Below, piece after piece: positions 1 to 52,533 of a stretch of 64,000 bases of DNA. Position numbers and translations under genes: made by a program. Source of the DNA: Marine Group III euryarchaeote CG-Epi1 (GTDB lineage Archaea > Thermoplasmatota > Poseidoniia > MGIII > CG-Epi1); the NCBI GenBank assembly GCA_001875345.1, contig MIZA01000019.1:1579-65578 (forward strand), read 5' to 3'. The notes under the pieces are model-generated. The model searched no databases and was not told the DNA's origin. It was given only the letters and a program-made list of their open reading frames with translations. Position 1 is the first letter of the stretch. The number at the start of each line of letters is the position of its first letter.

Positions 1-1
1 T

Positions 2-610
2 TCAGACGCCCACAGAAACGGCTGGAACAATGTAATTATTGACACTACTCTCGATGATTTGTCAATAGACTCAAATTCTAGACTGTTAGAGAAAGAAGAA
101 GTAGAAATTTCAGTAACATCTAATGGAACTTATGTTTGGAATAGAGTTAATACAACCATAGATTCTGATAGGAAAGCAAATGCAGGACTTAATTCCTTTT
201 GGGCAGGGGACAGTAATGAGGATACATATCTAGACTCTTGGTCTGGTTCTTTCAAGCAAAAGTCAGATATTTCATTGCCTAGCGGTGGAGTTGGTGAAAC
301 TAGAATTTTAGAGATAAAAACATGGTATGAGACTGAAAATACTTATGATGGTGGCCAAGTTTACATAACTAAGAATTCCGGTTCAACTTGGCAATTAATT
401 ACTCCGATAGGTGGCTATGATGGCTCATTTAGTGGAGATTGTGGCTCGACCGGTGCCTTTATGGGCGATAAATCAGGATTAGGTTGGCAAACTAAAAGAT
501 TTAATTTAACAGATTATAGAGGAGAAGATATTAGATTGAAATTCACATTCTGTAGCGATGGTTCAGAAAGTGACTTTGAAGGCTGGTATGTTGATGATAT
601 CAAGATAATT
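2..610 (+). other. N-terminal beta-sandwich (jelly-roll, 'GWYVDD'-type) domain of giant protein
   Basis: Asp-box-like ITKNSGSTWQLI, followed by DYRGEDIRLKFTFCSDGSESDFEGWYVDDIKI (nt ~520-610). This is the strand pattern typical of secreted jelly-roll recognition domains. Confidence 0.4.
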
Positions 611-3600
611 AAGGCTGCAGATGAATCAGTAGTCACTTACTCTGAAGGATTTGAAAGAATAGGTTACGGCTGGATTGCTCAGAATATGGCGGGAGAAGTT
701 AATTGGGAAGCTGAAGGTACACAAATATATTCAGGGATAAATAATGCGGATGTTTATGTTGCAGACGGAAATAGTGCGTCAATAATAATGAACAAGACAT
801 CTAATTCTAATCTTGTTAATTACTATAAATTTGATGAAAATAGTGGTAATTACGCTTACGATACAGTAACTCCAACTCATTCAGCTTATCTATACAGTGG
901 AGCTACTTTTGCATCTGGCAAATTTGGTAATGCAATAAGTTTTGATGGTACTAATGATTATGCAAGAAATACTCAATGTAATACCGTAGGTGGTTGTAAT
1001 GGTTATGATCATTACTCAATGTCAGTTTGGGTTAAATTTGACTCATTTCCTACTGGTACAGCTTACGAGGGTATTGCTAATTTCAGATATGATGCTGATG
1101 CGTACTTGGCAGTAAATTCAGATGGCAATCCTGTGTTCGGAGCTTATTTCTGGGGTACACCTTCAGGTGACCATAAGATTGAAGCTTCGACAGAAATGGT
1201 CACTGGCGTTTGGTATCACATAGCTGGTACTTGGAGTGAAGATTCGGATAAGCTGAGAATATACGTAAATGGAACTCTTGATGGTACTAACACTTTGTCT
1301 GGTACTACAGCCTATATGAGGTACAGTCAAAGTTATAACTATATCGGAAAATGTGTAACTTCAAGTACATCCTGTAACGGTGGCAACATGGATGGTATGG
1401 TAGATAATCTAGCCATATTCAATTCAGAATTATCTTCATCTCAAATTAAAGCATTGCATGAAGATCCTCTAGGTACCAATTCAGTTCTATACAAAACATC
1501 TCATTTTGGTGGTTCAGATTCAAAAACGAATAGCCAAGGTAAAATTGATAATTTATTTATTCTCAAGAAAATTTATGATGGAAGCTCATCAGGTACTAGC
1601 TACAAACCATATATTGGATTTCATCAAGGTTCGTGGACTGAAGATCCTAGAGAGGTAACTATATCCGGAGGCGAGCATTCGGGTAAACTTCCAGATAGTA
1701 GGGTTTACAATAGAAACAAAGGCAAATTGTATTATTCAATATCAGAAGCTGCATCTGATGCATCTACTCAACATGTTATCGAGGTTTGGCCAGGTCATTT
1801 CAAAGAAAATGTTTACATTAACCAAAGACTTTCAATAATTGGTTCAGGCCCTTCAAGAACAATTGTTAACGGTAGATATTTGGAAAGTCCATTTACGTTT
1901 GATAGCAGTAGTGACAATTCGGTAATAAAGAATTTAGCAGTCATCAATAGTAAAAATACAACTAGTTGTTGCGGAACAAGCTCTATGTCGGGAGGAATTG
2001 AGATTGCTTTCTCGTATGATATGGTTATAGACAACATAAGGGCAGATAGCTATATCGGAATTATGGCATATTATGCAAATGATTTAGTTATTAAAAATTC
2101 CAAAATAGTTTCAACTTCTACAACTCATTATTATGGAGTTAAAATTTACCAGCAACAAGATTATACATTGACTAATAATGAAATTTCGAATTATAGAGAA
2201 GGTGTACGTGTAGAATATACATATCAAGGTTTTGACCTTGAGAACAATTACATTCATAATAATACGAGCTATGGTCTTTACACTTATTATACAGCAACTA
2301 CAAGTGCTAGATCTAATCCCTTTAACATAGTTGGCAATCGATTTGTAGATAATAACTACGGGATTTACAAGGCAGATTCAAGTAGCTCTTATGGATATTC
2401 CTACCACATCAAAGATAATTTATTCAAGAGTAGCACTTGGGATGGAATCTACAGTAACTATTACTCGAGGGAATGGATAGTTGAGAATAATACTTTTGAT
2501 GGAGATGATGATCAAAGATATGGTCTTTATCTCAACAGGTACTCTTACCAGAGTGTATTTGGAAATAATACTTTTTCAGACCACACTAGTAATGACATTT
2601 ATTTCTATTATTGTACTTGCACAGGAACAAATGCAGTAAAATTCTTTAGCAATTCATATTCTTCAATTAGTGTTGTTAGTACTGCATTAATCAATGTTTA
2701 CAATAATCTCAATATTAGAACGTTGGATGAAGACAATAATGCTTTTTCAAATGTTGATTTAGAAATTAAAGATAGTGTAAGTACTTATTACAAAACGGCA
2801 CATTGGGGAGGTAGCGATTCTAAAACAGATTCTAGCGGATATGTATCTTCACCAGAATATATTCGTTCAGGCTATTACAGTAACTCAGCAACATTAGTGG
2901 ATAATACAATTACTGTGAAAATAGCATACGGAGTGAGAGCAAAGACGACATCATTCACATTTGACTCAGACGGTACCAAGAATATTGAAGTACCTAACAA
3001 CTTTAAGCAAGGAGTAATTGAGAACAAAGAAACTGAAACATTGTACTCAAGTTTTTCTTCAGCAGTTAGTGCAGCTAGCGCAGGTGACGTGCTCCAGCTG
3101 TGGGCATGGAATTATAACAATCTGGAAGTAACAAAAGGTGTTATTCTAAGAGGAAACTCAACTACTACTGCAATTGTTGACGGTGGTTCTTCAGATCATG
3201 CAATTGAGGTAAAATCGAACTCAGTTAAAATTGAAAATTTGACTTTGCAAGGTTCATCAGATAGCATACTCTTTGCTGGAAATTACAACAATCTAGAGCT
3301 TCAAAACTTAACGATTAGTGATATAGGTAGTGATAATGGAATACATTTCGATGGTACAAGCAGTTCGACAATATCTAATGTTACAGTAAACTCAACAAAG
3401 AGAAAAGCAATATTGTTTGAAGATGTAACCAGTATTACCGTTAAAAATAGTTTTTTCAAGAATTCATCATCATCACACGGATTTGAGATTAGTGATGGAA
3501 GTAGTTCAGTAATTTTAGATAATGTATTTATCCATAATGCAGGATATGACGGTTCATCAGCATACGGATTGTATGTTTCAGGCAGTTCAGCAGTTACAAT

Positions 3601-12600: not shown

Positions 12601-15600
12601 AGTTATAAAATTTATAAATTCAGATAACAATTTACTTGTTGCTCAAGATTCTACAACAATCAATTTGGTTGATTCAGCTAATGTGTCCGCTATTGGTTCT
12701 ACTTTTGATTTTGTAATTTGCAATTCAGAATCTTCTCTATATCTAAAGAATTATTTCAGAATAAATGTTACAAGAGATGGTACACCTCTAGAGGGAGTTG
12801 ATCTGAAAGTCTGGGATGGAGATACGACAGTTTATTCAACAGAATATTTCGAAGGTAGTGATGATAAAACCGACTCCGATGGTTTTGTTAGAAATATTCT
12901 TGCAATATACAAAGTATATGATGGAAGTAGTTCAGGTACTGAAAATACCACTCACATCAAGGTTAGATATGGTGATTGGTTCTTGTCTGAAAGCGATATA
13001 TTTGACAAGTACACTATTATCAATGTAGACATTCCAGTATTCAGGGTTTATAATACAAATAGTGAAGATGGTTACAATTACATCCAGAGAGCAATTGATA
13101 ATGCATCTGCAGGAGATGAGATTATTTTATCAGCAGGTACATTTAACGAGAATATATTAATTGACAAAGAGTTGACTTTGACCGGTTCAGGAATTGGTAC
13201 GATTATAACTGTTCAACCACCATTTGGTATGGGTTCTCCACCAATTGCCGATTGGAGAGTGCCTGGAATTAATGTAACCTCATCTAACGTAGCTATTACT
13301 AATGTTTTAATCAGTAATTTCACAGTTGGAATATTAGCATCCAACGCAGACTCCTTACGACTGGATTCTGTTCACGTTTCAGGTATACAAGGAATTGGTA
13401 TTCACATACTATCTTCTGAAAACGTTGAGGCTAATGAAGTTACAGTTGAAGGAAGCGAAGGATCAAACATTATTGTCGAAGACAACTCAACGGGTATGTC
13501 TATTTCCAACTCGTTAATAGGCTGGTCAGAAGAGTCTGGAATAATAGTAAGGCAAAATTCAGATTTCTTTGAAATGAGTTATGTAAACATAGAGAATAAC
13601 GAAGATTATGGATGTCTTATTTCATCAGACTATGCAGATTTATCAAATGTAGTTATCACCAATAACGGTTTGAATGGAATTTATTTAACTTCTTCATTCG
13701 GTAGTTCTTTCACTGATTCTTCATTTAAGGGCAATGGTCTTTCTGAAGTAAAAGTTATTCAGTCAAATTCATTACTAATTGAAAACAGTGAATTTAATAG
13801 TACAGATCAGGATGGAGGAGGTTGGGGAATTGATGTTTCTTCTTCTCTAAATATTGATATTCATTACACGTATTTCGAGCTAGGTATTAGATTTACAGAT
13901 ACTGATGACTCGCATATTAGAGACAGTTATTTTGGTAACATAAGTTATGGTAACAATTACGACCAGAAGACTTCTATTTTACTTAGTGATAGCTTCCGAA
14001 ACAAAATTTCAGATAACGAAATTTATAATGTGGGGCTAGGCTTTGTTATACTTGGCGGATCAAATAACAACTCAATCGAAAATAATACAATTCAGGCAGC
14101 TTCTACTGATATCGAATATTATTCCTCTGGAGCCAACAATACATTTATCAATACAGAAATTGATATAGTAGATATTCTTGAGACCAGTTATTTCGAAATA
14201 TTAAATTACGTAGATATACAAATGTATACTGTTAATGGTCCAGTTGAAGGCGTCGAATTGAATATAACAACAGACGGTAATCCTATATTTGTAACAGAGC
14301 ATTATAGCGGAGACGATGAGGCAACATTTTCGGATGGCTTTATTGGCAGACTATTCTTAGTCAACGAAGTTTACAACGGAAATTGGATTGCTAGCAAACC
14401 TGAAACTGTTGTAGAGTATTATTACGACGATGAAGGATACTCCTATACCTTAGATACTGACGTAAGTGGCTATCAGAAAATTTATGTAAATCTTCGCCCA
14501 ACAGCTACAATTGATTACATTAAGGGCATAGGAGAGAATGCATCACTTATCGGAATTGAAGCGGTTAAAGGGGCAGACAAGCCTATTGTTGACGAATACA
14601 CTACAGCCTATTGGTCCTTTGATGAAGGTGAGGGTTCTGATGCCTCTGGCACCTTTGCCTCAGGAACTATTACACCTTCTCCACTTTGGGAGGAAGGTAG
14701 ACAAGGTTTAGAAGGCGATTATTCAATAGTGTTTGATGGTCTCTTTACTAAATTGACTACAGATATTGTACTTGAAGATCAAGAATTTACTGGAGAAGTA
14801 TGGTTCAAAACTTCTTCAAGCATGCCTATGGTCATTTTTTCAGATAATGATGCTTCAGGTTCTTGGGGACATTCTCTATACATCGACGGAGGCACCTTAG
14901 GATTTGACTTCACAGTTGATGGAGGCTCAGTTATTCGTCTTGATTCATCTGTAGTAGTTACAGATGGAGATTGGCACAATGTAGTTGTTGTAAGAGGTGA
15001 AGACTATGTTGAGTTGTGGTTAGATGGCGAATTTTTAGTAGAAACAAATTATGAGGGTCAAGTTGATTCTTCTTCATCAGTGATATATGTAGGTCAGAAT
15101 CCGCTCGGAGGAGAACTATTTAGCGGAAATATTGACGATTTGAAATTCTCTAACGTTCCAAGGCACAGTGAAGATTTCATGTCAGGCGTTGGCGTAGTTG
15201 AGTTTAGTTCTGTAGTTAATGATGAAGATGGAGTGATTATAGAATACGAATGGCGTTCATCAAGGGATGGAATTATTGGTAGTGATAAGAGGCTATTCTA
15301 TTCAGTAGATGATTTATCCGAAGGAACACATACTATTACTCTTGAAGTTATAGATAATAATGGAACAAGGTCCGATATTGATTCAATGCCACTAACAGTT
15401 ATGATGAGGCCAGATGCTTATTTCTTAAGTGTTAAGGTAAATGGCAGCTCTCAAGCTTGGGGCTGGGATCCAATACCTGTATTCGATGATGAATTTATTG
15501 AAATTAGAGGAGCTTCAGGTACATTACCTGGTCTCATATCTGAATATTATTGGTCCTCAGATTTAGATGGTAAAATAGCAGATGGACTTACTTTGAATAC

Positions 15601-18600
15601 AGATGAGCTGTCCAATGGTACTCACACTATCAAATTTAGTATTAAGGCTACAAATGGTCTCTGGAGTCCTGTTCAAACGTTATTGGTAGATGTTAATGGT
15701 CGACCAGTTATTGAAGCTGACGAAGCTGAATTGTCTGATACTGAAATTCTAAGAATGGGTTCCGCTAATTTCAAGGTACCTGTTGAAGATGACAGTACAG
15801 CAGGAAATGAGTTAGATTACCAAGTTTCTTACAGGGTAGACGGCGGAGAATGGCAGAATGATTACATTTCTAATGTGTCATTTAATGCTCAAAGCTCTGA
15901 TGTTGAATTTGACTTCAGTCCTGATGTAAATGCCGAAACTGGAGATTATGAATTCCGTGTGGTAGCTGATGATGGAGAGGGCGGTAAGCAACAAGTTCAG
16001 CTAACACAGACTATTAACGTTCAGAACAATGCACCAGAAATAGAAATCGATGATGTACCATTAGAGTTTGAAGAAGGTGAAACAATTGATTTCGGTGTAG
16101 AAGTAACGGATGTCGAAGGTGGAACTCCATCTGTAGTATGGTATGCAGATTGTGAAGGACAATGTACAGAAGCTGACGAAATTGGTACTGGTTCCAACTT
16201 CAGTTTTGCAAATAGCTTAGCACCTGGTGATCATACCATTAAAGTTAGAATCTTGGATTCAGAAGGTGGTTACAAAGAGCAAGAATACAATATTGTTGTC
16301 AAAGCAGCTCCTGAAAGCGCAAGCTTAGTTGAGACAGCTATAGCAGATTTGAGCAATAATTTACCATTGTTTGCAAGTGCTGGAATCGGATTGGTTATGA
16401 TTTTAGGAACTTTGCTATTCCGAAGAAGGTCTTCAGCAGAACCAGTAGTCGAAGGTCTTGTAGTTGATGATGGTGTATCACCTCAACAACAGCAAAATCA
16501 GCAAATGCCTCCTACAGAAGTACTAGATTGGGAAATTCCAACGGATGCCCAAGGTCAAGCGTTGATTATTGGTGAATACATGGCAAAACGCCGTGAATCA
16601 TACATCACGCATCCAAATAATGAAGAAGTTTTAGATTACTTGCACAACAACCGTGAAAGATTTACAATATCAACTTATTTTGAAGTTCCAAATGATCCAA
16701 CTAACGTTATTTCAGACTGGGCATTACCTGAAAATTTACGTGGTAATGTTCACTTAGATTCTTTCCGTCAACAAATTGTTGAGAGGATTACAAACAGTTC
16801 ACCAGACAAAAATTTCGTTATTATCGGAGAACCTGGAGTTGGTAAAACGGTAATGTTATTCGAAGTGTTTGACAGATTAATGAACAAAGCTCCTGTAGGC
16901 ATTTTGACCACAGATACAATAGCTAAAGCTCATGAAATGTTCGGAGTACGTGTATTTTACGATGATATACCAGAGAATCAGGATTTAGTCGAAGCTTTAA
17001 CTGAAAATGAAGTTAAAGGAGTCATAGTTAGTTCAAGAGAAGCAGATTGGAAGGCTCTTCCAACAGAAATGCAAGCTAAATTCGATCGCTTGACTGTACC
17101 TCTCTTCAGCGAATTGGATATGAAAGCCATGATTGAGAAAATGATGGGATTCCAAAGTATTGGTCACAATGATGAGGCTGTGGCTATACTTGCAGAATAT
17201 GCAGAAGGAAGCCCAATCTATGTTTGGTCCATGGTTAGAGAAATGATGCACAGGAGTGTCAAAACTTTAACAAAAGAGTACATTGAAGAAAATTCAGTTA
17301 AAGGAATGCTAAATTATGTGGCACAGCTATTACAGAGATTACTCAAAGATGGAGAAGAATATCGTAAAGGAGGTCTCCACGCATTAGCTTCTTTGATTTT
17401 CCTTTCAGATCACATGGAAGAGCGTTACTGTAACGATTATTTCTTTGATGCATACGTTGAAGTTCTGTCCAAGTATACTGAAGAAAAATTAGATGATAAA
17501 ATGAATCCAAAAACATTGAATTTGGTTTTAGCTTATTTACCAATTAACGACAGTGTTATCAGATTCCCTCACGATACTTGGCCGGATGTATTGCAAGGAT
17601 GGGGTGACATGAATCCATTTAGTACAGAATTAAGGATGATAAACCGTGCTTTTGCAGATTCAGGAATATTCCAAGATTTAAAGAAGGAAGTTGTCAAAGA
17701 AGTCTGGGACTCTACATACGAAAGATACAAGAGAACTCCATCCAGGCAAAAGAATTCATTCTTGGCATTGGCAGACACATTATTCCAGAACTTTACTATT
17801 GATGAATTGAAAGAGTTGGGTGTAGACATAGACATTGTTAGGCAAGTTGCATCTACATACTCACACATTCCACAAGCAGCAAAGTTAATTTCCAAAATTC
17901 AAGCTGTTTTACCACAGACAGTTACAAGGATTATCAATATGCAGGACATAGGCTCTGAAAGTAGTCATGCACCGTACAAGATTCAAGAAATGTACTTAAT
18001 TTACAATGATGGTCGAATGCTATCAAGTTTAATGGATGAGGAAGCTAAAGTCGATGAAGATATTATGAGTAGTATGTTAACTGCAATCAATGACTTTGTT
18101 AAGGATTCATTCCAAACAACTGGAAACTTGGGTTCGATAGATTATGGCGAAAATCAAATTATCCTTGAAAGAGGAAAGCATACTATGCTTGCTTCCGTAG
18201 TTTATGGTGAGGCTAACAGAGATTTACGATCTAGAATGAGTCGTGCTTTGACAAAGATTGAAGATGAATTTAAATCAGATATTAAAGATTGGAATGGCGA
18301 CGTTGACAGCCTTAGCGGAACAGTGAAGCATCTTCAACCGATTATGGACATAAGTAAGTCAGTCACAAAAGATATGATTGATGAACTTCAAGCATTAAAA
18401 TCGGTTAACTTACGCTCTAGTTGGACACAGGTTGCAGGATTCGTTCAAGTTAATATTTTGATTAATAATTATTCAAAGAAGCAACTTAAAGGAGCAAAAT
18501 TAACTTTAGAATATGGTGCTGACTTCATGAAGGTAGTAAAAACTGAGCCTAAATTCAAGTACAAGGTTACAGAGGTTGATATCAAGAAAGTACCAGCCAA

Positions 18601-19153
18601 CGATGAAATGCCAGTAACATTGTACTTCGAGCCTTTAAAATCTGCTCAAGCTTCCTTGAACGTTCATTTAGATTATGAGTCAAAAGGTGGAAATGCATCT
18701 GGTGTGTCATCAGCTGTCTTTGAACGTGTTAATTTGTACAAAGAGGGACAATCACTTAACATTGCAGACCTTGAAAATGCAGCAAAGGCCGAGATAGTTC
18801 CAGAAGTTAAACCAGAAGCCGAAGCAGAGCCTGTTGTAGAAGCTGAAGTAGTGGTAGAAGCCGAAGCAGAGCCTGTTGTAGAAGCTGAAGTAGTAGTGGA
18901 AGCAGAGGCTGAAGTTGTTGACCCAGGTGAGTCTGGAGTCGATGATATTATGAGTAAATTGAATGAGTTAGATGGCGATAGTTCTACCGATGACAATGAT
19001 TCAGGTTCTTCAGATGATGACGATGATTTGATGAGTAAGCTAAATGAATTAGATGATCCAGAGAACAAGCCTAAGAAAAAGGAAAAGAAATCTGATGACG
19101 AAGATGATGCTTCAGGTATGGATGATCTTCTCGGTAAACTTGATGAATTATAA
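2..19153 (+). CDS. Giant modular surface protein, 5'-partial (>6,380 aa): multi-beta-helix ectodomain, one TM helix, cytoplasmic STAND-like NTPase tail
   Basis: A single frame is open from nt 2 to TAA 19151-19153 in an AT-rich sequence. The TTG at 59 used by the ORF track is not a real boundary: nt 2-58 continue in frame without a stop (SDAHRNGWNNVIIDTTLDD), so the N-terminus lies upstream of the window. ORFs on the opposite strand or in other frames inside it are short and low-complexity. Domain evidence is itemised in the sub-features below. Confidence 0.93.
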   Translation, partial: SDAHRNGWNNVIIDTTLDDLSIDSNSRLLEKEEVEISVTSNGTYVWNRVNTTIDSDRKANAGLNSFWAGDSNEDTYLDSWSGSFKQKSDISLPSGGVGETRILEIKTWYETENTYDGGQVYITKNSGSTWQLITPIGGYDGSFSGDCGSTGAFMGDKSGLGWQTKRFNLTDYRGEDIRLKFTFCSDGSESDFEGWYVDDIKIIKAADESVVTYSEGFERIGYGWIAQNMAGEVNWEAEGTQIYSGINNADVYVADGNSASIIMNKTSNSNLVNYYKFDENSGNYAYDTVTPTHSAYLYSGATFASGKFGNAISFDGTNDYARNTQCNTVGGCNGYDHYSMSVWVKFDSFPTGTAYEGIANFRYDADAYLAVNSDGNPVFGAYFWGTPSGDHKIEASTEMVTGVWYHIAGTWSEDSDKLRIYVNGTLDGTNTLSGTTAYMRYSQSYNYIGKCVTSSTSCNGGNMDGMVDNLAIFNSELSSSQIKALHEDPLGTNSVLYKTSHFGGSDSKTNSQGKIDNLFILKKIYDGSSSGTSYKPYIGFHQGSWTEDPREVTISGGEHSGKLPDSRVYNRNKGKLYYSISEAASDASTQHVIEVWPGHFKENVYINQRLSIIGSGPSRTIVNGRYLESPFTFDSSSDNSVIKNLAVINSKNTTSCCGTSSMSGGIEIAFSYDMVIDNIRADSYIGIMAYYANDLVIKNSKIVSTSTTHYYGVKIYQQQDYTLTNNEISNYREGVRVEYTYQGFDLENNYIHNNTSYGLYTYYTATTSARSNPFNIVGNRFVDNNYGIYKADSSSSYGYSYHIKDNLFKSSTWDGIYSNYYSREWIVENNTFDGDDDQRYGLYLNRYSYQSVFGNNTFSDHTSNDIYFYYCTCTGTNAVKFFSNSYSSISVVSTALINVYNNLNIRTLDEDNNAFSNVDLEIKDSVSTYYKTAHWGGSDSKTDSSGYVSSPEYIRSGYYSNSATLVDNTITVKIAYGVRAKTTSFTFDSDGTKNIEVPNNFKQGVIENKETETLYSSFSSAVSAASAGDVLQLWAWNYNNLEVTKGVILRGNSTTTAIVDGGSSDHAIEVKSNSVKIENLTLQGSSDSILFAGNYNNLELQNLTISDIGSDNGIHFDGTSSSTISNVTVNSTKRKAILFEDVTSITVKNSFFKNSSSSHGFEISDGSSSVILDNVFIHNAGYDGSSAYGLYVSGSSAVTIKNNTKVASSKSYEFYANGASSLKVQNSTFIGPNIALVEDSDGFLIEKSTFKDSSSGDYGVYIKNTDSGTFKDNKILNSASDDGSDYGALYLTGSKTNLLQNNTITNSGRSGIHLKSSSTDNKIYSNTVSSSYFSGLYVQSSDRSIVRNNSFSSSGDNGIKVSSSDGSIIDNNTLSSNTDYGLYISNSDDMIVKGNTASDNNAGMYLSASDDATISSNTVDDHASYGIYFTDSKRLRVKHNEIKNSLGDAVYLSSNCDSAFIDNNTIKSNGNSDSGRSLRVFEVEDSTFYNNTIDSNDYSGIVLTESSNNKIVHNVIKGNGKYGIQILNDATKSANNTIKDNTINDNSDIAIFNHGIFTTIFNNTIKYNELDGIKIASGGARTTIDSNNLVDNEGKAIAILANNVIIKSNTIDGDSSEIAVSILNANSASIENNTIEGGSQGIKVQNGSNAFIYKNTVKSNSGYGIYLLINSVSGDVKHNTLTDNEDHAMAISASNSTEIYNNTAKENAGYGLYSINSKLLVVKGNTIEDNDGGIKYNNCDYCNLTFNKIDDNGGYGLWFLSGSDNNTIKHNTVSDSSTKDVYLQGSTDNSAFNFTFTSIGVDSTSKLTITANLAIVFEDDDDDGFPGIDFALTSDGVTKYSTPFYGGSDSVSDSNGAAGATFSLVYRVYDGSSTPTNIPNILKYHYGVRSKEKSIDMSTSHTETVSVPSYWVKGLVKNINSGSTWYKIQDAIDNASSGNTLHIWAWTYTENVEVDESIIIIGNGTANTTLNATGGKGFDLTSDDISLSNVKIIDCGDTATYNGVQAAGDDSTIENIIVTGCSHGISAGGSGIWVGNSSLTNNSGAGINVWSGETSTSAVKLYNNLLTLNQNGIYSDEDDVVIKSNNIRNNTANGIYLSNAADAVISGNTIVDNPDGIETTNSSPRTVIKNNVISDSSSNGIKISSANSNNVVFENNTISSSNVYGIFINHSDNIYLGNNTISSSGNKDIRFNKATVGNSGKGNTFLTIQMDGSAYFALFNDLTLKFMQDETTGFSELDVKIISDGSTRYSTSGYGGSDSKTNTNGLLSRDFEFKYNEYDGSSTPSVVYTNISYQYGVRAKEVSVNMTTSHTETITVPSFWKNGLVHNLNSGVKYSTIQDAIDGASSGDVLQLWAYEYVEHDIEVTERVTLVGNSTSSVIVNGTWSDSIFDITTNSIVLKNMTIESSANGTTKECIEVSSGSGIVIKNLILKNCYNGIVVNTSNVDITNVTVQDSAKDGIVASASNIDISNVIVKNSGDDGIVISSSSTTLENSTIQNNADDGIVLVANAFIYKNIIKSNSGIGINIGEGSDYARILSNTIDDNDGHGVYVYESHHVKLTNNVIEDNEDYGLELRFANFTQIHNNSVDDNDGGIKFVSTKYSNITKSSFNDNNGRGIWFTSSSDSNNIRDSSASGSTDDDLELDSSSKNTGFNFTFGDGSIDVDSDSDFRLMNSLNIRFVDENGDAFSGLDIELFNHDTVLYATDFFGGSKATSNSTGYIAEELTVAYEIYNGSSTTEDVDTTLQYHYGVRGKTKQIDMSSSHTETITVQSYWTKGLVKNTNTGTNYYKIQDAIDNSSVEDILHVWAWTYNENIEIDESISVIGNGTSNTTINGTWNRIITISSDEVTVKNLKLVSGSNTTSLVYIDAEYAILEGLEIHGGYQAIEVKSRYAKISDSHVSGQSYSGIQVKAQGLNLEIANSIIRNSESNGIYVELGANYVDINNNSIHNNSGSGIRFQSAASSLKDNVVVDNDDWGIQINGRTADDIDNVVTNNTILRNGDGLKLFKQDSVLYSNIIKDNDGFGLQIDTSQDIYIWNNTISENDGTDIGMSTGSSAYSIGTSFSTISVSSDSILTLKSYIDLNVTDARGLNISGIDIRIKEGDSVKYSTDYFGGNDPKTDNNGTIATFLINSKEYDGSSTPTIIPTSVSARSNDWVETNTFDPANSIEITVPDLRVLNTRLDDSPLYYNIQTAIDNADEGDTIHAWSGIYFENIEISDEITLKGNGTSTIINGTSGTAIEINDNDISVEDLLIISSEKGIFLNAANDITISTIRFTGNEYAIYIEDSQSALIDNNEFDLEEYGIYFTGSSSGATVEYNKFRNATESAIYQSESDENGGTSIHDNMFNDCAIGWQSGSGSNTFSSNALKDNNYGVRLTGIESYNNMLDSNSFDDSIVAVYIYNTAHDNNLFNNEFDDSDNSDIKLSDSSDTVSFNNTFSDVSVSSDANMWIKVYIDVTVYDNSSNTFEGADIEVKQDNLALYSTAYFGGSDDKTNSSGQIDTFLVATDQYNGSSTPSEVITTVTARYSDWINAETYDVEASITIEVLDFRVYNEDTEELFYSINGAIAGSFDGDTIQVWEGTFRELVLVDKELTIVGNGTSKTVINGTFSGNTVTVESNEVSISDLAIVASSSTGSGLYVEGGDGQFINLRLSYNNISYQSVEDFNEIKESDIRNNNLGILLSGDNNIINNNEFSDNNIGIELNEECEDATIEHNEISDSLQSGMFINKAETNVIKFNNINNNSGYGIHSYSASENHIFSNDLSYNSDISLYLESTGNSSIHNNTFIGNDDYPATVTDSYYNVIRDNKFVANDDYFQFFEAGGYNSLVNNTFDESGIILEDSNNQIISDNTISESSENGIKIYKSSSNNYLSGNTISDSDDEDIYIGGSGYQRNNRGYDNIFSTIEVQNNGQFILMDYVNVRTENSEGNMSGNDVQAVYNSEIFYASEYFSGSDPLTDDSGLVPDFLAPVEEYNGSSTPDEILTTITVRYVDWINLFEMDASDDTSLSVFVPDLRVKNINTGEESYHIQTSVNNAGQSDTIIVSNGTYFENVVLNVQKITLRGPYANQLNENVIIDSQDNGIAVTISKAEIKLFGFNITNSHEEEDVFTSSAVRVLSNGNTLSFNKVTNSYAGILLEDTSDNTISYNSIDDVDFGIVLTKADDNQIRYNTILDSEENDIELTNTGYSTGSSGNTISHNEEIGVIKFINSDNNLLVAQDSTTINLVDSANVSAIGSTFDFVICNSESSLYLKNYFRINVTRDGTPLEGVDLKVWDGDTTVYSTEYFEGSDDKTDSDGFVRNILAIYKVYDGSSSGTENTTHIKVRYGDWFLSESDIFDKYTIINVDIPVFRVYNTNSEDGYNYIQRAIDNASAGDEIILSAGTFNENILIDKELTLTGSGIGTIITVQPPFGMGSPPIADWRVPGINVTSSNVAITNVLISNFTVGILASNADSLRLDSVHVSGIQGIGIHILSSENVEANEVTVEGSEGSNIIVEDNSTGMSISNSLIGWSEESGIIVRQNSDFFEMSYVNIENNEDYGCLISSDYADLSNVVITNNGLNGIYLTSSFGSSFTDSSFKGNGLSEVKVIQSNSLLIENSEFNSTDQDGGGWGIDVSSSLNIDIHYTYFELGIRFTDTDDSHIRDSYFGNISYGNNYDQKTSILLSDSFRNKISDNEIYNVGLGFVILGGSNNNSIENNTIQAASTDIEYYSSGANNTFINTEIDIVDILETSYFEILNYVDIQMYTVNGPVEGVELNITTDGNPIFVTEHYSGDDEATFSDGFIGRLFLVNEVYNGNWIASKPETVVEYYYDDEGYSYTLDTDVSGYQKIYVNLRPTATIDYIKGIGENASLIGIEAVKGADKPIVDEYTTAYWSFDEGEGSDASGTFASGTITPSPLWEEGRQGLEGDYSIVFDGLFTKLTTDIVLEDQEFTGEVWFKTSSSMPMVIFSDNDASGSWGHSLYIDGGTLGFDFTVDGGSVIRLDSSVVVTDGDWHNVVVVRGEDYVELWLDGEFLVETNYEGQVDSSSSVIYVGQNPLGGELFSGNIDDLKFSNVPRHSEDFMSGVGVVEFSSVVNDEDGVIIEYEWRSSRDGIIGSDKRLFYSVDDLSEGTHTITLEVIDNNGTRSDIDSMPLTVMMRPDAYFLSVKVNGSSQAWGWDPIPVFDDEFIEIRGASGTLPGLISEYYWSSDLDGKIADGLTLNTDELSNGTHTIKFSIKATNGLWSPVQTLLVDVNGRPVIEADEAELSDTEILRMGSANFKVPVEDDSTAGNELDYQVSYRVDGGEWQNDYISNVSFNAQSSDVEFDFSPDVNAETGDYEFRVVADDGEGGKQQVQLTQTINVQNNAPEIEIDDVPLEFEEGETIDFGVEVTDVEGGTPSVVWYADCEGQCTEADEIGTGSNFSFANSLAPGDHTIKVRILDSEGGYKEQEYNIVVKAAPESASLVETAIADLSNNLPLFASAGIGLVMILGTLLFRRRSSAEPVVEGLVVDDGVSPQQQQNQQMPPTEVLDWEIPTDAQGQALIIGEYMAKRRESYITHPNNEEVLDYLHNNRERFTISTYFEVPNDPTNVISDWALPENLRGNVHLDSFRQQIVERITNSSPDKNFVIIGEPGVGKTVMLFEVFDRLMNKAPVGILTTDTIAKAHEMFGVRVFYDDIPENQDLVEALTENEVKGVIVSSREADWKALPTEMQAKFDRLTVPLFSELDMKAMIEKMMGFQSIGHNDEAVAILAEYAEGSPIYVWSMVREMMHRSVKTLTKEYIEENSVKGMLNYVAQLLQRLLKDGEEYRKGGLHALASLIFLSDHMEERYCNDYFFDAYVEVLSKYTEEKLDDKMNPKTLNLVLAYLPINDSVIRFPHDTWPDVLQGWGDMNPFSTELRMINRAFADSGIFQDLKKEVVKEVWDSTYERYKRTPSRQKNSFLALADTLFQNFTIDELKELGVDIDIVRQVASTYSHIPQAAKLISKIQAVLPQTVTRIINMQDIGSESSHAPYKIQEMYLIYNDGRMLSSLMDEEAKVDEDIMSSMLTAINDFVKDSFQTTGNLGSIDYGENQIILERGKHTMLASVVYGEANRDLRSRMSRALTKIEDEFKSDIKDWNGDVDSLSGTVKHLQPIMDISKSVTKDMIDELQALKSVNLRSSWTQVAGFVQVNILINNYSKKQLKGAKLTLEYGADFMKVVKTEPKFKYKVTEVDIKKVPANDEMPVTLYFEPLKSAQASLNVHLDYESKGGNASGVSSAVFERVNLYKEGQSLNIADLENAAKAEIVPEVKPEAEAEPVVEAEVVVEAEAEPVVEAEVVVEAEAEVVDPGESGVDDIMSKLNELDGDSSTDDNDSGSSDDDDDLMSKLNELDDPENKPKKKEKKSDDEDDASGMDDLLGKLDEL
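811..1460 (+). other. LamG/concanavalin-A-like lectin domain 1 of giant protein
   Basis: LVNYYKFDENSGNYAYD...GKFGNAISFDGTNDYA...YSMSVWVKFDSF...LRIYVNGTLDG...MDGMVDNLAIFNSELSSSQIKAL. This is collinear with the classical Laminin_G_3 pattern (YWKFDE..G....D.SG; SFDG..DYV; LYVNG; DEVRIYNRALS..EI). Confidence 0.8.
1490..14480 (+). repeat. Array of ~9 right-handed parallel beta-helix (PbH1/NosD-like) modules separated by 10 copies of a prealbumin/CarboxypepD_reg-like linker domain
   Basis: Each module opens with a NosD-type cap, e.g. YKIQDAIDNASSGNTLHIWAWTYTENVEVDESIIIIGNGT. It then runs through 20-23-aa coils of the type 'NNTI..N...GI.L..S..N.I'. The linker signature Y-[SKA]-T-x-[YFHW]-[FWY]-G-G-S-D-x-K-T-[DN]-x-x-G ... 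Y-[DN]-G-S-S-[TS] occurs at about nt 1490, 2789, 5519, 6745, 8102, 9316, 10438, 11827, 12831 and 14288. Confidence 0.8.
14594..15180 (+). other. LamG/concanavalin-A-like domain 2 of giant protein
   Basis: TTAYWSFDEGEGSDASG...YSIVFDGLFTKL...FTGEVWFKTSS...VELWLDGEFLVE...FSGNIDDLKFSNVPRHSEDF. Confidence 0.75.
15180..16310 (+). other. Four PKD/Ig-like domains (membrane-proximal stalk) of giant protein
   Basis: Four units of ~90 aa each, containing patterns such as I..YEWRSS.DG.IG......Y....LSEGTHTITLEV.D..G and LAPGDHTIKVRILDSEGG. Confidence 0.6.
16361..16420 (+). other. Single transmembrane helix of giant protein (type-I orientation)
   Basis: LPLFASAGIGLVMILGTLLF is followed immediately by RRRSS (positive-inside). 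It is the only strongly hydrophobic ~20-aa segment I could find in the visible protein. Confidence 0.75.
16790..17250 (+). other. Cytoplasmic P-loop NTPase, STAND (NB-ARC/NACHT/archaeal ATPase)-like
   Basis: Walker A FVIIGEPGVGKTV (GEPGVGKT = nt 16826-16849); Walker B VRVFYDDIPE; sensor-1-like GVIVSSRE (compare hhhTTR); LTVPLFSELDMKAMI; GxP motif AEYAEGSPIYVW. The order matches that in NB-ARC. Confidence 0.6.
17975..18271 (+). other. Longin/roadblock(LC7)-like alpha/beta domain (predicted from pattern only)
   Basis: YKIQEMYLIYNDGRMLSSL..DEDIMSSMLTAINDFVKDSF..LGSIDYGENQIILERGKHTMLASVVYGE..LRSRMSRALTKIEDEF gives a beta-alpha-beta-beta-alpha periodicity. Confidence 0.35.
18410..18680 (+). other. 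Cytoplasmic beta-sandwich (CARDB/Ig-like) domain
   Basis: An alternating hydrophobic beta pattern: VAGFVQVNILINNYSKKQLKGAKLTLEYG...VTEVDIKKVPANDEMPVTLYFEP...ASLNVHLDYE. Confidence 0.3.
18815..18898 (+). repeat. Two tandem copies of a 42-nt coding repeat
   Basis: gaagccgaagcagagcctgttgtagaagctgaagtagtggta (18815-18856) is repeated at 18857-18898 with differences only in the last few bases. It encodes (EAEAEPVVEAEVVV)x2, followed by a partial third unit EAEAEVV. Confidence 0.9.
18941..19150 (+). repeat. Three copies of an acidic amphipathic peptide motif DD[IL][ML]xKL[ND]EL at the extreme C-terminus
   Basis: DDIMSKLNELD (18941-18973), DDLMSKLNELD (19022-19054) and DDLLGKLDEL-stop (19121-19150), separated by D/S/K-rich spacers. 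Confidence 0.85.
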
Positions 19154-19154
19154 G

Positions 19155-19230
19155 TGGTGCGGGTGCCGGGATTTGAACCCGGGTTCCAAACTTGGCAAGC
19201 TTGAGTGATACCAGGCTACACCACACCCGC
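19155..19230 (-). tRNA. tRNA-Gly(GCC): tRNA-Gly (anticodon GCC), CCA encoded
   Basis: The reverse complement reads GCGGGTG-TG-GTGT-AGCCTGGTA-TCAC-T-CAAGC-TTGCCAA-GTTTG-GAAC-CCGGG-TTCAAAT-CCCGG-CACCCGC-A-CCA. It has a perfect 7-bp acceptor stem, a 5-bp anticodon stem with U33/A37 flanking GCC, and a 5-bp T stem with a TTCAAAT loop. It forms a GC-rich island in AT-rich DNA. Confidence 0.93.
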
Positions 19231-39934: not shown

Positions 39935-39935
39935 C

Positions 39936-42243: not shown

Positions 42244-42247
42244 TTCA

Positions 42248-52308: not shown

Positions 52309-52533
52309 ATGAAACGCAGAGTTATTAATTTGTCGAATGGTACACAGAGTAGTTGTGGTATAGCCAATTGTAACGACTCAATTAAACGCTCTGTTTCTCG
52401 TAAAAAAGTTGATTTAGTCCCTGAATTAGAAGTTAGAGGAAATGGTAAAAAAATTGGATTATGTCAGTCTTGCTACAGAATTTTTAAAAAAGCCACCAAA
52501 AAGGATAGAACTCTGGAGTCTCTAGGAAGATGA
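52309..52533 (+). CDS. Small basic Cys4 (Cx5C...CxxC) protein, unknown function
   Basis: SSCGIANCND ... LCQSCYRIFKKATKKDR. TATA-like AATTTTAAG lies ~27 nt upstream of ATG. The stop overlaps the next start (ATGA). Confidence 0.5.
   Translation: MKRRVINLSNGTQSSCGIANCNDSIKRSVSRKKVDLVPELEVRGNGKKIGLCQSCYRIFKKATKKDRTLESLGR

What the first reader, a model, noticed from the sequence alone, without database searches (positions are those of the whole stretch)
1..19153. 19-kb uninterrupted ORF that is still open at the window edge
The frame starting at nt 2 has no stop for 19,152 nt in an AT-rich genome, where random frames close within a few hundred nt. The ORF-track start (TTG 59) is arbitrary, because the 19 codons before it are also open. 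The protein is therefore longer than 6,380 aa and its signal peptide and N-terminus lie outside the window. The architecture, read directly from the translation, is: jelly-roll, LamG, about nine NosD/PbH1-type beta-helices with cap motifs, a second LamG, four PKD/Ig-like domains, one TM helix and a ~910-aa cytoplasmic region. It occupies about 30% of the window.
Basis: seen in the sequence. Interest (0 to 1): 0.8.

Follow-up and report, generated by a model that had tools for sequence, protein, structure and literature searches.

The report
Giant archaeal surface protein with ATPase tail
The 19-kb open frame is a real gene of an uncultured marine archaeon (Marine Group III) encoding a ~6,900-residue cell-surface fibre that crosses the membrane once and ends inside the cell in a highly conserved NLR-like (STAND) ATPase, a combination I found described nowhere.

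Summary
Frame +2 is open from nt 2 to 19150 (6,383 codons; chance about 1e-214). Relatives show the true start 522 codons upstream, with a signal peptide, so the protein is about 6,905 aa (about 756 kDa). Long-read contigs, short-read metagenome-assembled genomes (MAGs) and a single-cell genome are colinear with the window. Internal DNA repeats are at most 73% identical, so misassembly is excluded.

The cytoplasmic part is new information. It holds a STAND-type nucleotide-binding oligomerisation domain (NOD) ATPase (divergent nSTAND3, with Walker A/B, sensor-1 Arg, GxP and a winged-helix HD motif). This is followed by a longin-like domain, an Ig-like sandwich, an acidic spacer and three DDLLGKLDEL-type motifs, the last at the exact C-terminus.

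The NOD is 91-97% identical between species, more than neighbouring housekeeping genes. The ectodomain is only 26-70% identical. The same TM-NOD cassette carries other ectodomains in relatives (LamG/PKD arrays, WD40 or FG-GAP propellers).

Best reading: a fast-evolving adhesin/receptor fibre coupled to a cytoplasmic STAND switch. The function is inferred, not shown.

The parts
2..73 (+). Last rungs of beta-helix 0, whose start lies upstream of the window. The full gene starts 522 codons (1,566 nt) before window nt 2.
   Evidence: Homologues P0123/P0127/P0128 and L024 continue upstream as a Beta_helix. Window aa 1 corresponds to residue 523 of the L024 ORF.
74..646 (+). MAM-like jelly-roll domain (InhA-like MAM)
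   Evidence: PF20773, E 1.4e-10, aa 103-203
806..1456 (+). LamG / concanavalin-like lectin domain
   Evidence: PF13385, E 6.6e-19, aa 335-483. PDB 4qvs S-layer-domain protein, E 1.1e-12, aa 269-485.
1457..1681 (+). First small beta-sandwich linker carrying the (F/Y)xGGSDxKT...YxGSS motif
   Evidence: The motif recurs 10 times: aa 501, 934, 1844, 2254, 2705, 3110, 3484, 3947, 4282, 4767. No Pfam family.
1700..14536 (+). Nine modules, each made of an N-terminal cap (Y.IQ.AID.A..GD.I.VW.G.Y.ENV), a right-handed parallel beta-helix (NosD/PbH1) and a beta-sandwich linker. Module starts: aa 567, 1007, 1915, 2324, 2776, 3176, 3548, 4013, 4348.
   Evidence: PF13229 and PF05048 far above cut-off in every slice. 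Cap HMM hits E 1e-11 to 1e-35. Only weak PDB similarity to AlgG C5-epimerase.
14639..15172 (+). Second LamG domain inside the window (third in the full protein)
   Evidence: PF13385 E 7.7e-15, PF02210 3.2e-8
15179..16321 (+). Four PKD/bacterial-Ig-like domains forming a membrane-proximal stalk
   Evidence: K319L-like_PKD 29.9 bits, PKD 26.2, Big_9 30, Big_7 29.7, Y_Y_Y 33.2, Big_13 33.6, all above cut-offs
16361..16423 (+). Single transmembrane helix (LPLFASAGIGLVMILGTLLF) followed by RRR, giving N-out/C-in topology
   Evidence: Only segment with Kyte-Doolittle 19-residue mean above 1.6. N-glycosylation sequons occur at 1.96 per 100 aa before it and 0.66 after it.
16514..17911 (+). Cytoplasmic STAND-type NOD module: conserved helical lead-in, P-loop NBD, helical domain and winged helix. 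Motifs: Walker A GEPGVGKT (aa 5609-5616), Walker B FYDD (5652-5655), sensor-1 SSR (R5679), GxP GSP (5736-5738), FPHD (5855-5858).
   Evidence: AF2 pLDDT 82, pTM 0.72. Foldseek top hits Avs5, NLRP2, NOD2 and archaeal STAND 6mfv, plus AAA+ proteins. Motifs invariant in 63 sequences. Weak nSTAND3/AAA_16 hits. Distant family members pass the nSTAND3 cut-off.
17969..18286 (+). Longin/roadblock-like domain (bb-a-bbb-a), signature Y.IYNDGR...DSDIMSSMLTAINDFVKDSF
   Evidence: AF2 pLDDT 82. Foldseek top hits AP-2 mu2, COPI delta, AP-1/AP-3 mu and AP sigma3 (E 2e-8 to 1e-4). No Pfam hit.
18287..18751 (+). Two helices (W-D/N-GD linker) followed by a cytoplasmic Ig-like beta-sandwich
   Evidence: Secondary structure of model m5f3a63e5805a. 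Cohesin/C3 MG/TRAP-beta-like sandwich hits.
18752..19150 (+). Acidic E/V/A-rich disordered spacer with three copies of the motif DD(I/L)(M/L)(S/G)KL(N/D)EL (aa 6314-6323, 6341-6350, 6374-6383). The last copy ends the protein.
   Evidence: The motif is present in all orthologues, in 2-4 copies, and in no other of 1,311 ORFs examined.
19151..19153 (+). Stop codon of the giant gene
19155..19230 (-). Convergent tRNA-Gly(GCC) abutting the stop codon. This arrangement is conserved in orthologues.

Best explanation
This is an intact gene of about 20.7 kb in an epipelagic Marine Group III archaeon (class Poseidoniia). It encodes a type I membrane glycoprotein of about 6,905 aa.

After Sec-dependent export and signal-peptide removal, about 5,900 acidic, N/S/T-rich residues lie outside the cell as a long modular fibre. 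The fibre has ten beta-helix plus beta-sandwich modules, decorated with three LamG domains and one MAM lectin-like domain. It stands on a stalk of four PKD/Ig domains. Its likely role is to bind glycans, particles or other cells.

A single C-terminal TM helix tethers the fibre to a cytoplasmic cassette that is far more conserved than the fibre. The cassette is a catalytically competent STAND (NLR-like, nSTAND3-related) ATPase, a longin-like domain, an Ig-like domain, and an acidic arm ending in repeated amphipathic DDLLGKLDEL peptides.

I propose that the cassette works as a nucleotide-dependent oligomerisation switch. Engagement or crowding of the ectodomains brings the NODs together, or the NOD state controls clustering of the fibres. 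The assembled platform then recruits cytoplasmic partners through the longin domain (a dimerisation and NTPase-regulator fold) and the C-terminal peptides.

Shown: gene integrity, topology, domain identities, motif conservation, rate asymmetry and modular exchange of ectodomains. Inferred: adhesion/ligand binding, oligomerisation, direction of signalling and partner recruitment.
For: Gene reality:
- Open frame.
- Start codon and signal peptide in 11 Illumina contigs and 2 long-read contigs.
- Uninterrupted frames of at least 4,212-4,424 aa in a single-cell genome, in MAGs and in a metagenome contig covering both halves.
- Colinearity with relatives and absence of high-identity internal repeats.

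Taxon:
- Archaeal RNase P RNA and PolD in the window.
- Closest loci are MGIII genomes.

Topology:
- One TM helix, positive-inside RRR, and a threefold sequon enrichment outside.

Ectodomain:
- Pfam hits and cap/linker periodicity.

STAND module:
- AF2 model, pLDDT 82.
- Foldseek hits to Avs5, NLRP2, NOD2 and 6mfv.
- Invariant Walker A/B, sensor-1 R, GSP and FPHD motifs.
- Distant relatives pass the nSTAND3 threshold and carry classical WD40 or FGE-sulfatase sensors.

Selection:
- NOD 91-97% aa identity, against SPP 79-91%, Lhr 86-96% and ThiF 81-83%.
- Ectodomain 26-70% identity; PKD stalk 40-45%.

Modularity:
- The same TM-NOD cassette sits behind LamG/PKD arrays (L010), WD40+PKD (P0034, P0252) and an FG-GAP propeller (P0275).
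- 25 of 144 retrieved family members are TM-tethered.

C-terminal cassette:
- Longin-like + Ig model and adaptor-mu-like Foldseek hits.
- Motif exclusive to these proteins and always C-terminal.
Against: - No functional data of any kind: no expression, localisation, ligand or ATPase evidence.
- The protein itself scores below the Pfam nSTAND3 cut-off (17.8 against 27.2 bits).
- Foldseek E-values for the NOD are modest (about 1e-6, TM about 0.3) and classical AAA+ proteins score almost as well.
- Canonical STANDs sense with C-terminal repeats in the same compartment as the NOD. Signal transfer through a single TM helix is unproven.
- Most family members (96 of 144) are soluble, so the NOD cassette does not need an ectodomain.
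- Beta-helices could be catalytic rather than adhesive. A weak AlgG-like similarity exists.
Confidence: 0.55

Rival explanations
1. A cell-surface polysaccharide-processing mega-enzyme. The ten NosD/pectate-lyase-like beta-helices would be lyases, epimerases or hydrolases acting on algal polysaccharides. The lectin-like domains would target substrate, and the cytoplasmic cassette would only anchor or regulate.
For: The beta-helix (CASH) fold is shared with many lyases and epimerases. The only PDB sequence hits of the ectodomain are AlgG mannuronan C5-epimerases (E 3e-4). A weak Pect-lyase_RHGA_epim hit exists. MGII/III are regarded as heterotrophs on particulate organic matter (PMC6461757).
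Against: Hits are marginal and cover one helix only. No CAZyme catalytic family passed a threshold. The helices diverge to 26-60% identity between species, which fits binding surfaces better than conserved active sites. Relatives replace the helices by LamG/PKD or propellers.
Confidence: 0.15
2. A conflict or defence device. STAND NTPases are typically immune sensors. Here the hypervariable ectodomain would detect or decoy viruses (or competitors) at the cell surface, and the NOD would trigger a cytoplasmic response.
For: Best structural matches include Avs5 and NLRs. There are weak Avs4/EruA/AbiO/Nhi hits. Remote relatives carry FGE-sulfatase or WD40 sensors, as in defence-associated STANDs (10.1101/2023.09.22.558884; PMC13581612). 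The ectodomain evolves very fast while the NOD is frozen.
Against: No recognisable effector (nuclease, protease, TIR, SIR2 or pore) is fused or adjacent. PADLOC hits are confined to the P-loop. The neighbourhood is housekeeping and syntenic across species, not a defence island. The gene is conserved in every MGIII relative examined rather than patchy. PMC13581612 notes many non-defence STAND clades.
Confidence: 0.15
3. A Notch-like regulated intramembrane proteolysis substrate. The presenilin-type signal-peptide peptidase encoded 140 nt downstream would cut the TM helix after ectodomain shedding and release the STAND cassette.
For: PF06550 SPP/presenilin homologue at 19292-20215 (E 8e-79), adjacent in all MGIII orthologues. 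The giant protein is a single-pass N-out/C-in protein.
Against: The adjacency is not kept in the more distant orthologue L010, whose neighbours are unrelated. Within MGIII the whole region is syntenic, so adjacency carries no information. A convergent tRNA gene separates the two genes.
Confidence: 0.05
4. An assembly artefact, chimera or decaying pseudogene.
For: Long-read relatives L001-L003 show the gene split into many ORFs.
Against: The same contigs also split PolB, Lhr and aminotransferase genes, so the breaks are indel errors. Five independent short-read assemblies and one single-cell genome keep the frame open. The gene is colinear with relatives at 93% identity, and internal repeats reach at most 73%. 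The C-terminal third is under strong purifying selection.
Confidence: 0.01

Closest known systems
STAND NTPases (NLR/Avs/Apaf-1-like; Pfam nSTAND3, AAA_16)
   Same: P-loop NBD, helical domain and winged helix. Walker A, Walker B (DD), sensor-1 Arg, GxP and a conserved His-Asp in the winged helix. The fold matches Avs5, NLRP2, NOD2 and 6mfv. Remote relatives have the classical NOD + WD40 or FGE-sulfatase layout.
   Different: The putative sensor is N-terminal, about 5,900 aa long and extracellular, separated from the NOD by a TM helix. There are no C-terminal repeat sensors and no known effector. A longin-like + Ig-like + peptide-motif tail takes their place. The sequence is too divergent to pass the nSTAND3 threshold. 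The family is tiny: 164 clusters at 50% identity among 1.84 billion.
Giant prokaryotic surface adhesins and fibres (bacterial RTX/Bap-type adhesins; archaeal halomucin; methanogen adhesin-like proteins with PbH1 beta-helices). Comparison from my own knowledge.
   Same: Several thousand residues, acidic, built from repeated beta-rich modules with lectin-like tips. Presumably glycosylated and extended from the cell surface.
   Different: Anchored by a C-terminal TM helix with a 909-aa enzymatic cytoplasmic domain. This replaces T1SS/RTX retention, sortase or archaeosortase (PGF-CTERM) anchoring, or secretion. No RTX, dockerin or PGF-CTERM signal was found.
NosD / CASH-type right-handed parallel beta-helix proteins
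   Same: PF05048 and PF13229 are matched many times above threshold, and each helix has a typical N-terminal cap.
   Different: Not a NosD orthologue: TIGR04247 scores 64.8 bits against a cut-off of 300. There are ten helices in tandem, each followed by a novel beta-sandwich with a GGSDxKT motif that has no Pfam family.
Medium (mu) and small (sigma) subunits of eukaryotic AP/COPI adaptor complexes
   Same: The best structural matches of the C-terminal cassette have an N-terminal longin domain followed by a beta-sandwich (AP-2 mu2 E 2e-8, COPI delta, AP-1/3 mu, sigma3 TMt 0.65).
   Different: 8-12% identity. The beta-sandwich is a single Ig-like domain of about 115 aa, not the roughly 280-aa two-lobed mu-homology domain. 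TM-scores are about 0.3 with rmsd above 20 A for the two-domain alignment. The resemblance is one of domain composition, not demonstrated homology.
Giant genes of Omnitrophota and other prokaryotes (10.1101/2023.11.21.568195)
   Same: A very long single ORF from an uncultured organism, mostly extracellular, with attachment and carbohydrate-related domains. It is usually fragmented in short-read assemblies.
   Different: Much smaller than the proteins above 30,000 aa. It has one TM helix rather than many and no SecA-DEAD domain. It is archaeal; that study found few archaeal giants, mostly in Asgard.

Membership tests
STAND NTPase superfamily (nSTAND3-like NOD) | Walker A P-loop (GxxxxGK[ST]) following beta-strand 1 | tested here: met
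   GEPGVGKT, aa 5609-5616, after strand FVII. Nearly invariant in 63 sequences.
STAND NTPase superfamily (nSTAND3-like NOD) | Walker B hhhhDD/DE and a sensor-1 arginine after the next strand | tested here: met
   RVFYDD (5650-5655) and VIVSSR (R5679), at strand ends in the AF2 model and conserved at 90% or more.
STAND NTPase superfamily (nSTAND3-like NOD) | Helical domain with a GxP motif, and a winged-helix domain with a conserved His (MHD-like). This is my own knowledge of the family definition. | tested here: met
   GSP 5736-5738 and FPHD 5855-5858 are invariant in A1/A2 and lie between helices and next to a beta-hairpin in the model. Proximity of the His to the nucleotide site was not measured.
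STAND NTPase superfamily (nSTAND3-like NOD) | Fold similarity to solved STAND NODs | tested here: met
   Foldseek rank 1 EfAvs5 (1.7e-6). NLRP2, NOD2 and archaeal STAND 6mfv are in the top 34. Classical AAA+ proteins score similarly.
STAND NTPase superfamily (nSTAND3-like NOD) | Score above the Pfam nSTAND3 (PF20720) gathering threshold | tested here: not met
   17.8 bits against 27.2 for this protein. Profile-linked distant relatives P0271, P0275, P0286 and P0293 score 28-31 bits and pass.
STAND NTPase superfamily (nSTAND3-like NOD) | Tripartite effector-NOD-C-terminal repeat sensor layout in one compartment | tested here: not met
   No TPR, WD40 or LRR after the NOD. The large variable region is N-terminal and extracellular.
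STAND NTPase superfamily (nSTAND3-like NOD) | Ligand- and nucleotide-dependent oligomerisation | not testable with these tools
   Needs biochemistry or multimer modelling.
Right-handed parallel beta-helix (PF13229) / NosD-like (PF05048) | Pfam gathering thresholds | tested here: met
   Up to 327 bits (cut-off 25.9) and 223 bits (cut-off 23.6). Every 1,000-aa slice from aa 1 to 5250 is positive.
NosD copper-chaperone orthologue (TIGR04247) | NCBIfam cut-off of 300 bits | tested here: not met
   64.8 bits.
LamG / concanavalin-like (PF13385) | Pfam threshold of 27.6 bits | tested here: met
   69 and 55.8 bits in the window. 103 bits in the upstream part taken from L024.
Longin / roadblock fold | bb-a-bbb-a topology and structural match to longin domains | tested here: met
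   DSSP string of model m5f3a63e5805a. Hits to mu2, delta-COP and sigma3.
Longin / roadblock fold | Sequence-family membership (Pfam Robl_LC7, longin or clathrin-adaptor small chain) | tested here: not met
   No Pfam family at E<=0.05 except a spurious TACC_C hit.
AP-complex mu subunit | C-terminal two-lobed mu-homology domain of about 280 aa | tested here: not met
   Only one beta-sandwich of about 115 aa (aa 6136-6250) follows the longin-like domain. 8-10% identity, rmsd above 20 A.
RTX/T1SS giant adhesins; PGF-CTERM archaeal surface proteins | RTX nonapeptide repeats with a C-terminal T1SS signal, or a PGF-CTERM archaeosortase signal | tested here: not met
   No such Pfam or NCBIfam hits in any slice. 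The C-terminus is cytoplasmic.
Known anti-phage defence systems (PADLOC-DB) | Full-length match to a defence protein model | tested here: not met
   Only P-loop-local hits of 50-70 residues (Nhi, AbiO; 19-20 bits).

The most novel reading that the evidence does not exclude
The TM-tethered members of this family would be a new class of transmembrane NLR-like receptors. An exchangeable and sometimes giant extracellular sensor (beta-helix array, LamG/PKD array, WD40 or FG-GAP propeller) reports particle, glycan, cell or virus contact across a single TM helix to a cytoplasmic STAND NOD. Oligomerisation of the NOD assembles a longin/Ig platform and displays C-terminal DDLLGKLDEL peptides to recruit downstream machinery. 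This would be an outside-in signalling route in abundant planktonic archaea that have few classical signalling systems.
Probability: 0.25. Interest if true: 0.8.

Novelty: new variant of a known kind. Interest (0 to 1): 0.62.

Why it matters
Marine Group II and III archaea are abundant and uncultured, and how they interact with particles, algae and viruses is unknown. This gene takes up about 20.7 kb of a small genome and is kept intact in every relative examined.

It combines two things normally studied apart: a hypervariable giant surface fibre and an NLR-type ATPase switch. The switch is more conserved than the adjacent housekeeping genes.

If the coupling is functional, the STAND paradigm (cytosolic pattern recognition) would extend to extracellular sensing. 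It would also give a concrete molecular handle on attachment and surface recognition in planktonic archaea: a conserved cytoplasmic cassette with a peptide motif.

The analysis also defines three sequence families with no Pfam model: the GGSDxKT beta-sandwich linker, the YNDGR longin-like domain and the TM-proximal NOD.

On the practical side, the gene is fragmented in most assemblies, so its product is invisible in current annotations.

Tried and rejected
1. Repeat-driven misassembly. Rejected: internal repeats reach at most 73% identity over 265 nt, and two long-read contigs are colinear with the window.

2. Frameshifts in the long-read relatives as evidence of a broken gene. Rejected: PolB, Lhr and other genes on the same contigs are split as well, and short-read assemblies are intact.

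3. Septin relationship. Two septins were the top PDB sequence hits (E 0.045 and 0.07), but the match covers only the pre-P-loop and P-loop stretch. The Walker B DD, sensor-1 Arg and fold search point to AAA+/STAND, not a TRAFAC GTPase. Treated as chance.

4. Presenilin/SPP neighbour as a functional partner. The adjacency is not conserved in L010.

5. Membership of a known defence system. Only P-loop-level PADLOC and NCBIfam hits.

6. The idea that the C-terminal LxxKLxxL peptides are MIM1-like MIT-binding motifs comes from memory only. I could not test it, and I did not search for MIT-domain proteins. It remains a lead.

7. My first slice-wise BLAST comparison with orthologues picked paralogous modules and wrongly suggested non-colinear ectodomains. 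It was redone with global alignments.

8. An exact 43-nt pattern from the window start found nothing in metagenome contigs. The protein-based scan succeeded.

9. The MGIII genome paper (10.1038/ismej.2016.188) is not held. Literature searches for giant proteins in Poseidoniales/MGIII, or for STANDs with extracellular sensors, found no description.

Full report
**Observation.**
Frame +2 of the window is open from nt 2 to nt 19150 (6,383 codons) and stops at 19151-19153. The window has 36.3% G+C, so a stop is expected every 13.5 codons. The chance of such a run is about 1e-214. The next longest open stretch in any frame is 1,980 codons. The ORF lister's TTG at nt 59 is an artefact of the window edge.

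**Source organism.**
The window carries an archaeal RNase P RNA (218 bits), the PolD large subunit and other archaeal housekeeping genes. The closest genome loci are Marine Group III archaea: MGIII-CG-Epi1 LRMED-008, MAG SP307 and single-cell genomes AH-321-L02 and AG-343-J07. The window belongs to a related but distinct species. Flanking genes are 75-82% identical in nucleotides to these genomes.

**Integrity and true ends.**
- Long-read contig L001 (213 kb) is colinear with window 1-12558 at 93.3% nt identity. Long-read contig L002 (350 kb) is colinear with window 6481-28122 at 92.7%. Together they span the whole ORF without rearrangement.
- Their gene calls are fragmented. PolB, Lhr and an aminotransferase on the same contigs are fragmented too, so these are indel errors.
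- Short-read assemblies keep the frame open. L004, L006 and the single-cell genome L008 are open for at least 4,212-4,221 aa, up to the edge of the DNA I could fetch. Metagenome contig L017 is open for 4,424 aa from its ATG to the contig end.
- Internal direct repeats are at most 73% identical over 265 nt, which is too divergent to mislead an assembler.
- The 5' end comes from a protein-guided scan of metagenome contigs. Eleven contigs share the start M(K/R)KMSAKxRLLNASLLLLVAMLFVVF(A/T)SEDSEA/ATHTVD. This is a textbook signal peptide, and it follows a divergently transcribed flavin reductase gene.
- In L024 (98.5% identical over the 270-aa overlap), window residue 1 is residue 523. The full protein therefore has about 6,905 aa, about 756 kDa before glycosylation, and pI 4.3.
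- The missing 522 aa contain the signal peptide, a cap, a LamG domain (E 1.9e-29) and a beta-helix.

**Extracellular architecture.**
- InhA-like MAM jelly-roll (aa 103-203).
- Laminin_G_3 (aa 335-483).
- Beta_helix and NosD hits in every slice up to about aa 4700 (as strong as 1.5e-98).
- A second Laminin_G_3 (about aa 4920-5056).
- PKD/bacterial-Ig families above threshold in aa 5060-5440.

An HMM built from six caps finds exactly nine caps, at aa 567, 1007, 1915, 2324, 2776, 3176, 3548, 4013 and 4348. Each helix is followed by a beta-sandwich of about 100 aa with a (F/Y)xGGSDxKT...YxGSS signature. This sandwich has no Pfam model.

With the upstream part, the protein has ten helix-sandwich modules, three LamG domains, one MAM-like domain and four PKD/Ig domains. 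No catalytic family is detected. The only PDB sequence matches of the helices are marginal ones to AlgG C5-epimerase. The NosD equivalog threshold is far from met.

The ectodomain is acidic and rich in N, S, T and I. It has three times the N-glycosylation sequon density of the cytoplasmic part.

**Membrane and cytoplasm.**
Only one segment (aa 5454-5474) is hydrophobic enough for a TM helix, and it is followed by RRR. With the N-terminal signal peptide this gives a type I topology and a cytoplasmic part of 909 aa.

A homology search with that part returned hundreds of Poseidoniia/MGIII proteins that share a module of about 470 aa at 46-55% identity. An AlphaFold2 model of aa 5500-6000, built on 63 sequences, has pLDDT 82 and pTM 0.72. 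It shows a five-stranded P-loop core, a helical domain and a winged-helix region.

Foldseek against the PDB ranks the STAND protein EfAvs5 first. NLRP2, NOD2 and the archaeal STAND 6mfv are also high, interleaved with RuvB, FtsH and ClpC.

The alignment shows the following motifs invariant or nearly invariant:
- Walker A GEPGVGKT
- Walker B FYDD
- sensor-1 SSR
- a GSP (GxP) motif
- an FPHD motif in the winged helix

The protein itself is below the Pfam nSTAND3 and AAA_16 thresholds. An exhaustive profile search of 1.84 billion cluster representatives found only 164 relatives. The more distant of these pass the nSTAND3 threshold. They have the classical layout of a NOD followed by a WD40 or FGE-sulfatase sensor. 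I therefore class the module as a divergent, lineage-restricted branch of nSTAND3-type STAND NTPases.

**C-terminal cassette.**
An AlphaFold2 model of aa 5985-6265 (pLDDT 82) shows three elements:
- a bb-a-bbb-a longin/roadblock-like domain
- two helices
- an Ig-like sandwich

Its best structural matches are the mu subunits of AP-2, AP-1 and AP-3, COPI delta and AP sigma3 (E 2e-8 to 1e-4). These proteins also start with a longin domain followed by beta-sandwich structure. Identity is about 10%, and the sandwich here is a single small domain. This is a resemblance in domain composition, not membership.

No Pfam family matches. The same longin-like domain occurs in three other contexts:
- directly behind a TM helix in a cohesin-domain protein (P0233)
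- in P0246
- in a soluble coiled-coil protein (P0242; also L006:17171-18829)

The protein ends with an acidic E/V/A-rich spacer and three copies of DD(I/L)(M/L)(S/G)KL(N/D)EL. The last copy is the C-terminus. Orthologues have two to four copies, always with one at the very end. None of the other 1,311 ORFs in the window and fetched loci has the motif.

**Evolutionary behaviour.**
Global alignments with three orthologues show a sharp asymmetry.
- Ectodomain: 54-94% identity with L004, 35-70% with L008 and 26-59% with L006.
- NOD: 90-99% identity.

Against the same genomes, identities are as follows:
- NOD: 91-97%
- Longin-Ig part: 85-96%
- SPP: 79-91%
- Lhr: 86-96%
- ThiF: 81-83%
- PKD stalk: 40-45%

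So the cytoplasmic cassette is more constrained than neighbouring housekeeping genes, while the fibre evolves very fast.

The cassette is also modular.
- In L010 (52% NOD identity) it sits behind at least 3,546 aa of LamG, PKD and Y_Y_Y domains without beta-helices.
- In P0031, P0034, P0035 and P0252 it sits behind a signal peptide, a WD40 propeller, PKD domains and a TM helix.
- In P0275 it sits behind an FG-GAP propeller and a TM helix.

Of 144 retrieved family members with the P-loop, 25 are TM-tethered, 96 are soluble with a coiled-coil N-terminus, and 23 are short or truncated.

**Interpretation.**
Shown:
- A real, intact and conserved gene.
- A type I topology.
- A giant modular beta-helix/lectin/Ig ectodomain.
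- A catalytically competent-looking STAND NOD.
- A longin-like plus Ig-like tail with conserved terminal peptides.
- Opposite evolutionary regimes on the two sides of the membrane.
- Repeated exchange of the ectodomain.

Inferred:
- The ectodomain is an adhesin/receptor fibre, perhaps of the order of 100 nm. That length is my estimate from domain counts and standard domain dimensions.
- The NOD acts as a nucleotide-dependent oligomerisation switch, coupled to clustering of the fibre.
- The longin domain and terminal peptides recruit partners.

I give this composite reading 0.55. The rivals are:
- a surface polysaccharide-processing enzyme array (0.15)
- a conflict/defence sensor (0.15)
- a substrate for regulated intramembrane proteolysis by the adjacent presenilin-type peptidase (0.05; the adjacency is not conserved in L010)
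- an artefact (0.01)

**Comparison with the known.**
Giant prokaryotic surface proteins and giant genes are known. The survey in 10.1101/2023.11.21.568195 found few archaeal giants, mostly in Asgard. Poseidoniales genome papers discuss adhesion through archaella, thrombospondin-like and flotillin genes, but no such protein (PMC6461757 and PMC6864105).

STAND NTPases are described as intracellular sensors, with many non-defence clades (PMC13581612). Some DGR-diversified STAND targets are predicted to place sensor domains in the periplasm (10.1101/2023.09.22.558884). My searches found no description of a STAND NOD tethered to a giant extracellular fibre. The library is incomplete, so this is not proof of absence.

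I rate the finding a new variant of known kinds: a giant adhesin fused through the membrane to a STAND switch.

**Limits.**
- There is no expression or biochemical evidence.
- Foldseek support for STAND over generic AAA+ is modest.
- The window's own upstream sequence was not recovered. The N-terminus comes from a 98.5%-identical contig.

Noticed in passing
window 19155-19230 (-); L002/L004/L006/L008; L010 10670-10745: A convergent tRNA-Gly(GCC) begins 1 nt after the giant gene's stop codon. It is conserved in all MGIII orthologues. The distant orthologue in L010 is followed 15 nt after its stop by a convergent tRNA-Gln(TTG) instead. Possibly it serves as a terminator or an island boundary; unexplained.
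   Followed up: partly
window 19292-20215 (+): A presenilin-type signal-peptide peptidase (PF06550, E 8e-79) lies immediately downstream of a giant single-pass membrane protein. It is syntenic in MGIII but not in L010.
   Followed up: yes
window 23722-27940: A four-gene glycosylation/lipid-modification block: PMT_2-like GT-C, GT2, polysaccharide deacetylase, and LPG_synthase_TM on the minus strand. It is present in the window, L002 and L005. In L006 and L008 the alignment jumps from Lhr (about 23640) to ThiF (about 28000), so this is a small variable island next to the giant glycoprotein gene.
   Followed up: partly
window 31007-33931 (+): A 974-aa protein with bacterial thrombospondin type-3 repeats (PF18884, E 2e-30). 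This is the kind of gene cited as an adhesion marker in Poseidoniales (PMC6461757).
   Followed up: no
window 34007-43495 (+): A second large surface-type protein (1,975 aa) with CarboxypepD_reg, Big_3_5, MG2/MG4 and a C-terminal DUF4129. It is followed by DUF4350, a MoxR AAA+ ATPase (AAA_3, E 2e-64) and a DUF58/vWA protein. This looks like a MoxR-DUF58-type operon.
   Followed up: no
L006 17171-18829 (+): In this MGIII relative the ThiF-rhodanese (MoeB-like) reading frame continues without a stop into a coiled coil and a paralogue of the giant protein's longin-like domain (E 7.7e-44 to the A3 profile). In the window ThiF ends at 29068 and no such domain follows.
   Followed up: partly
window aa 5575-5630 of the giant protein (nt about 16724-16891): The top PDB sequence hits of the cytoplasmic region are two septins (E 0.045 and 0.07). 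They align over the stretch just before and including the P-loop (NLRGNVHLDSFRQQIVERI...FVIIGEPGVGKT against LSGHVGFDSLPDQLVNK...ILCIGETGLGKS). Judged to be chance or convergent, but striking.
   Followed up: partly
window 59903-60190 (-): Archaeal RNase P RNA (RF00373, 218 bits), full length.
   Followed up: no
window 2001-14000: The beta-helix part of the giant gene has lower G+C (0.33) than the rest of the window (0.35-0.41). This is probably a consequence of its N/I/S/T/D-rich composition.
   Followed up: no
window 52530-54032, 43495-44340, 58638-59372, 62535-63257(-): Four ORFs of 240-500 aa have no Pfam family at E<=0.001.
   Followed up: no
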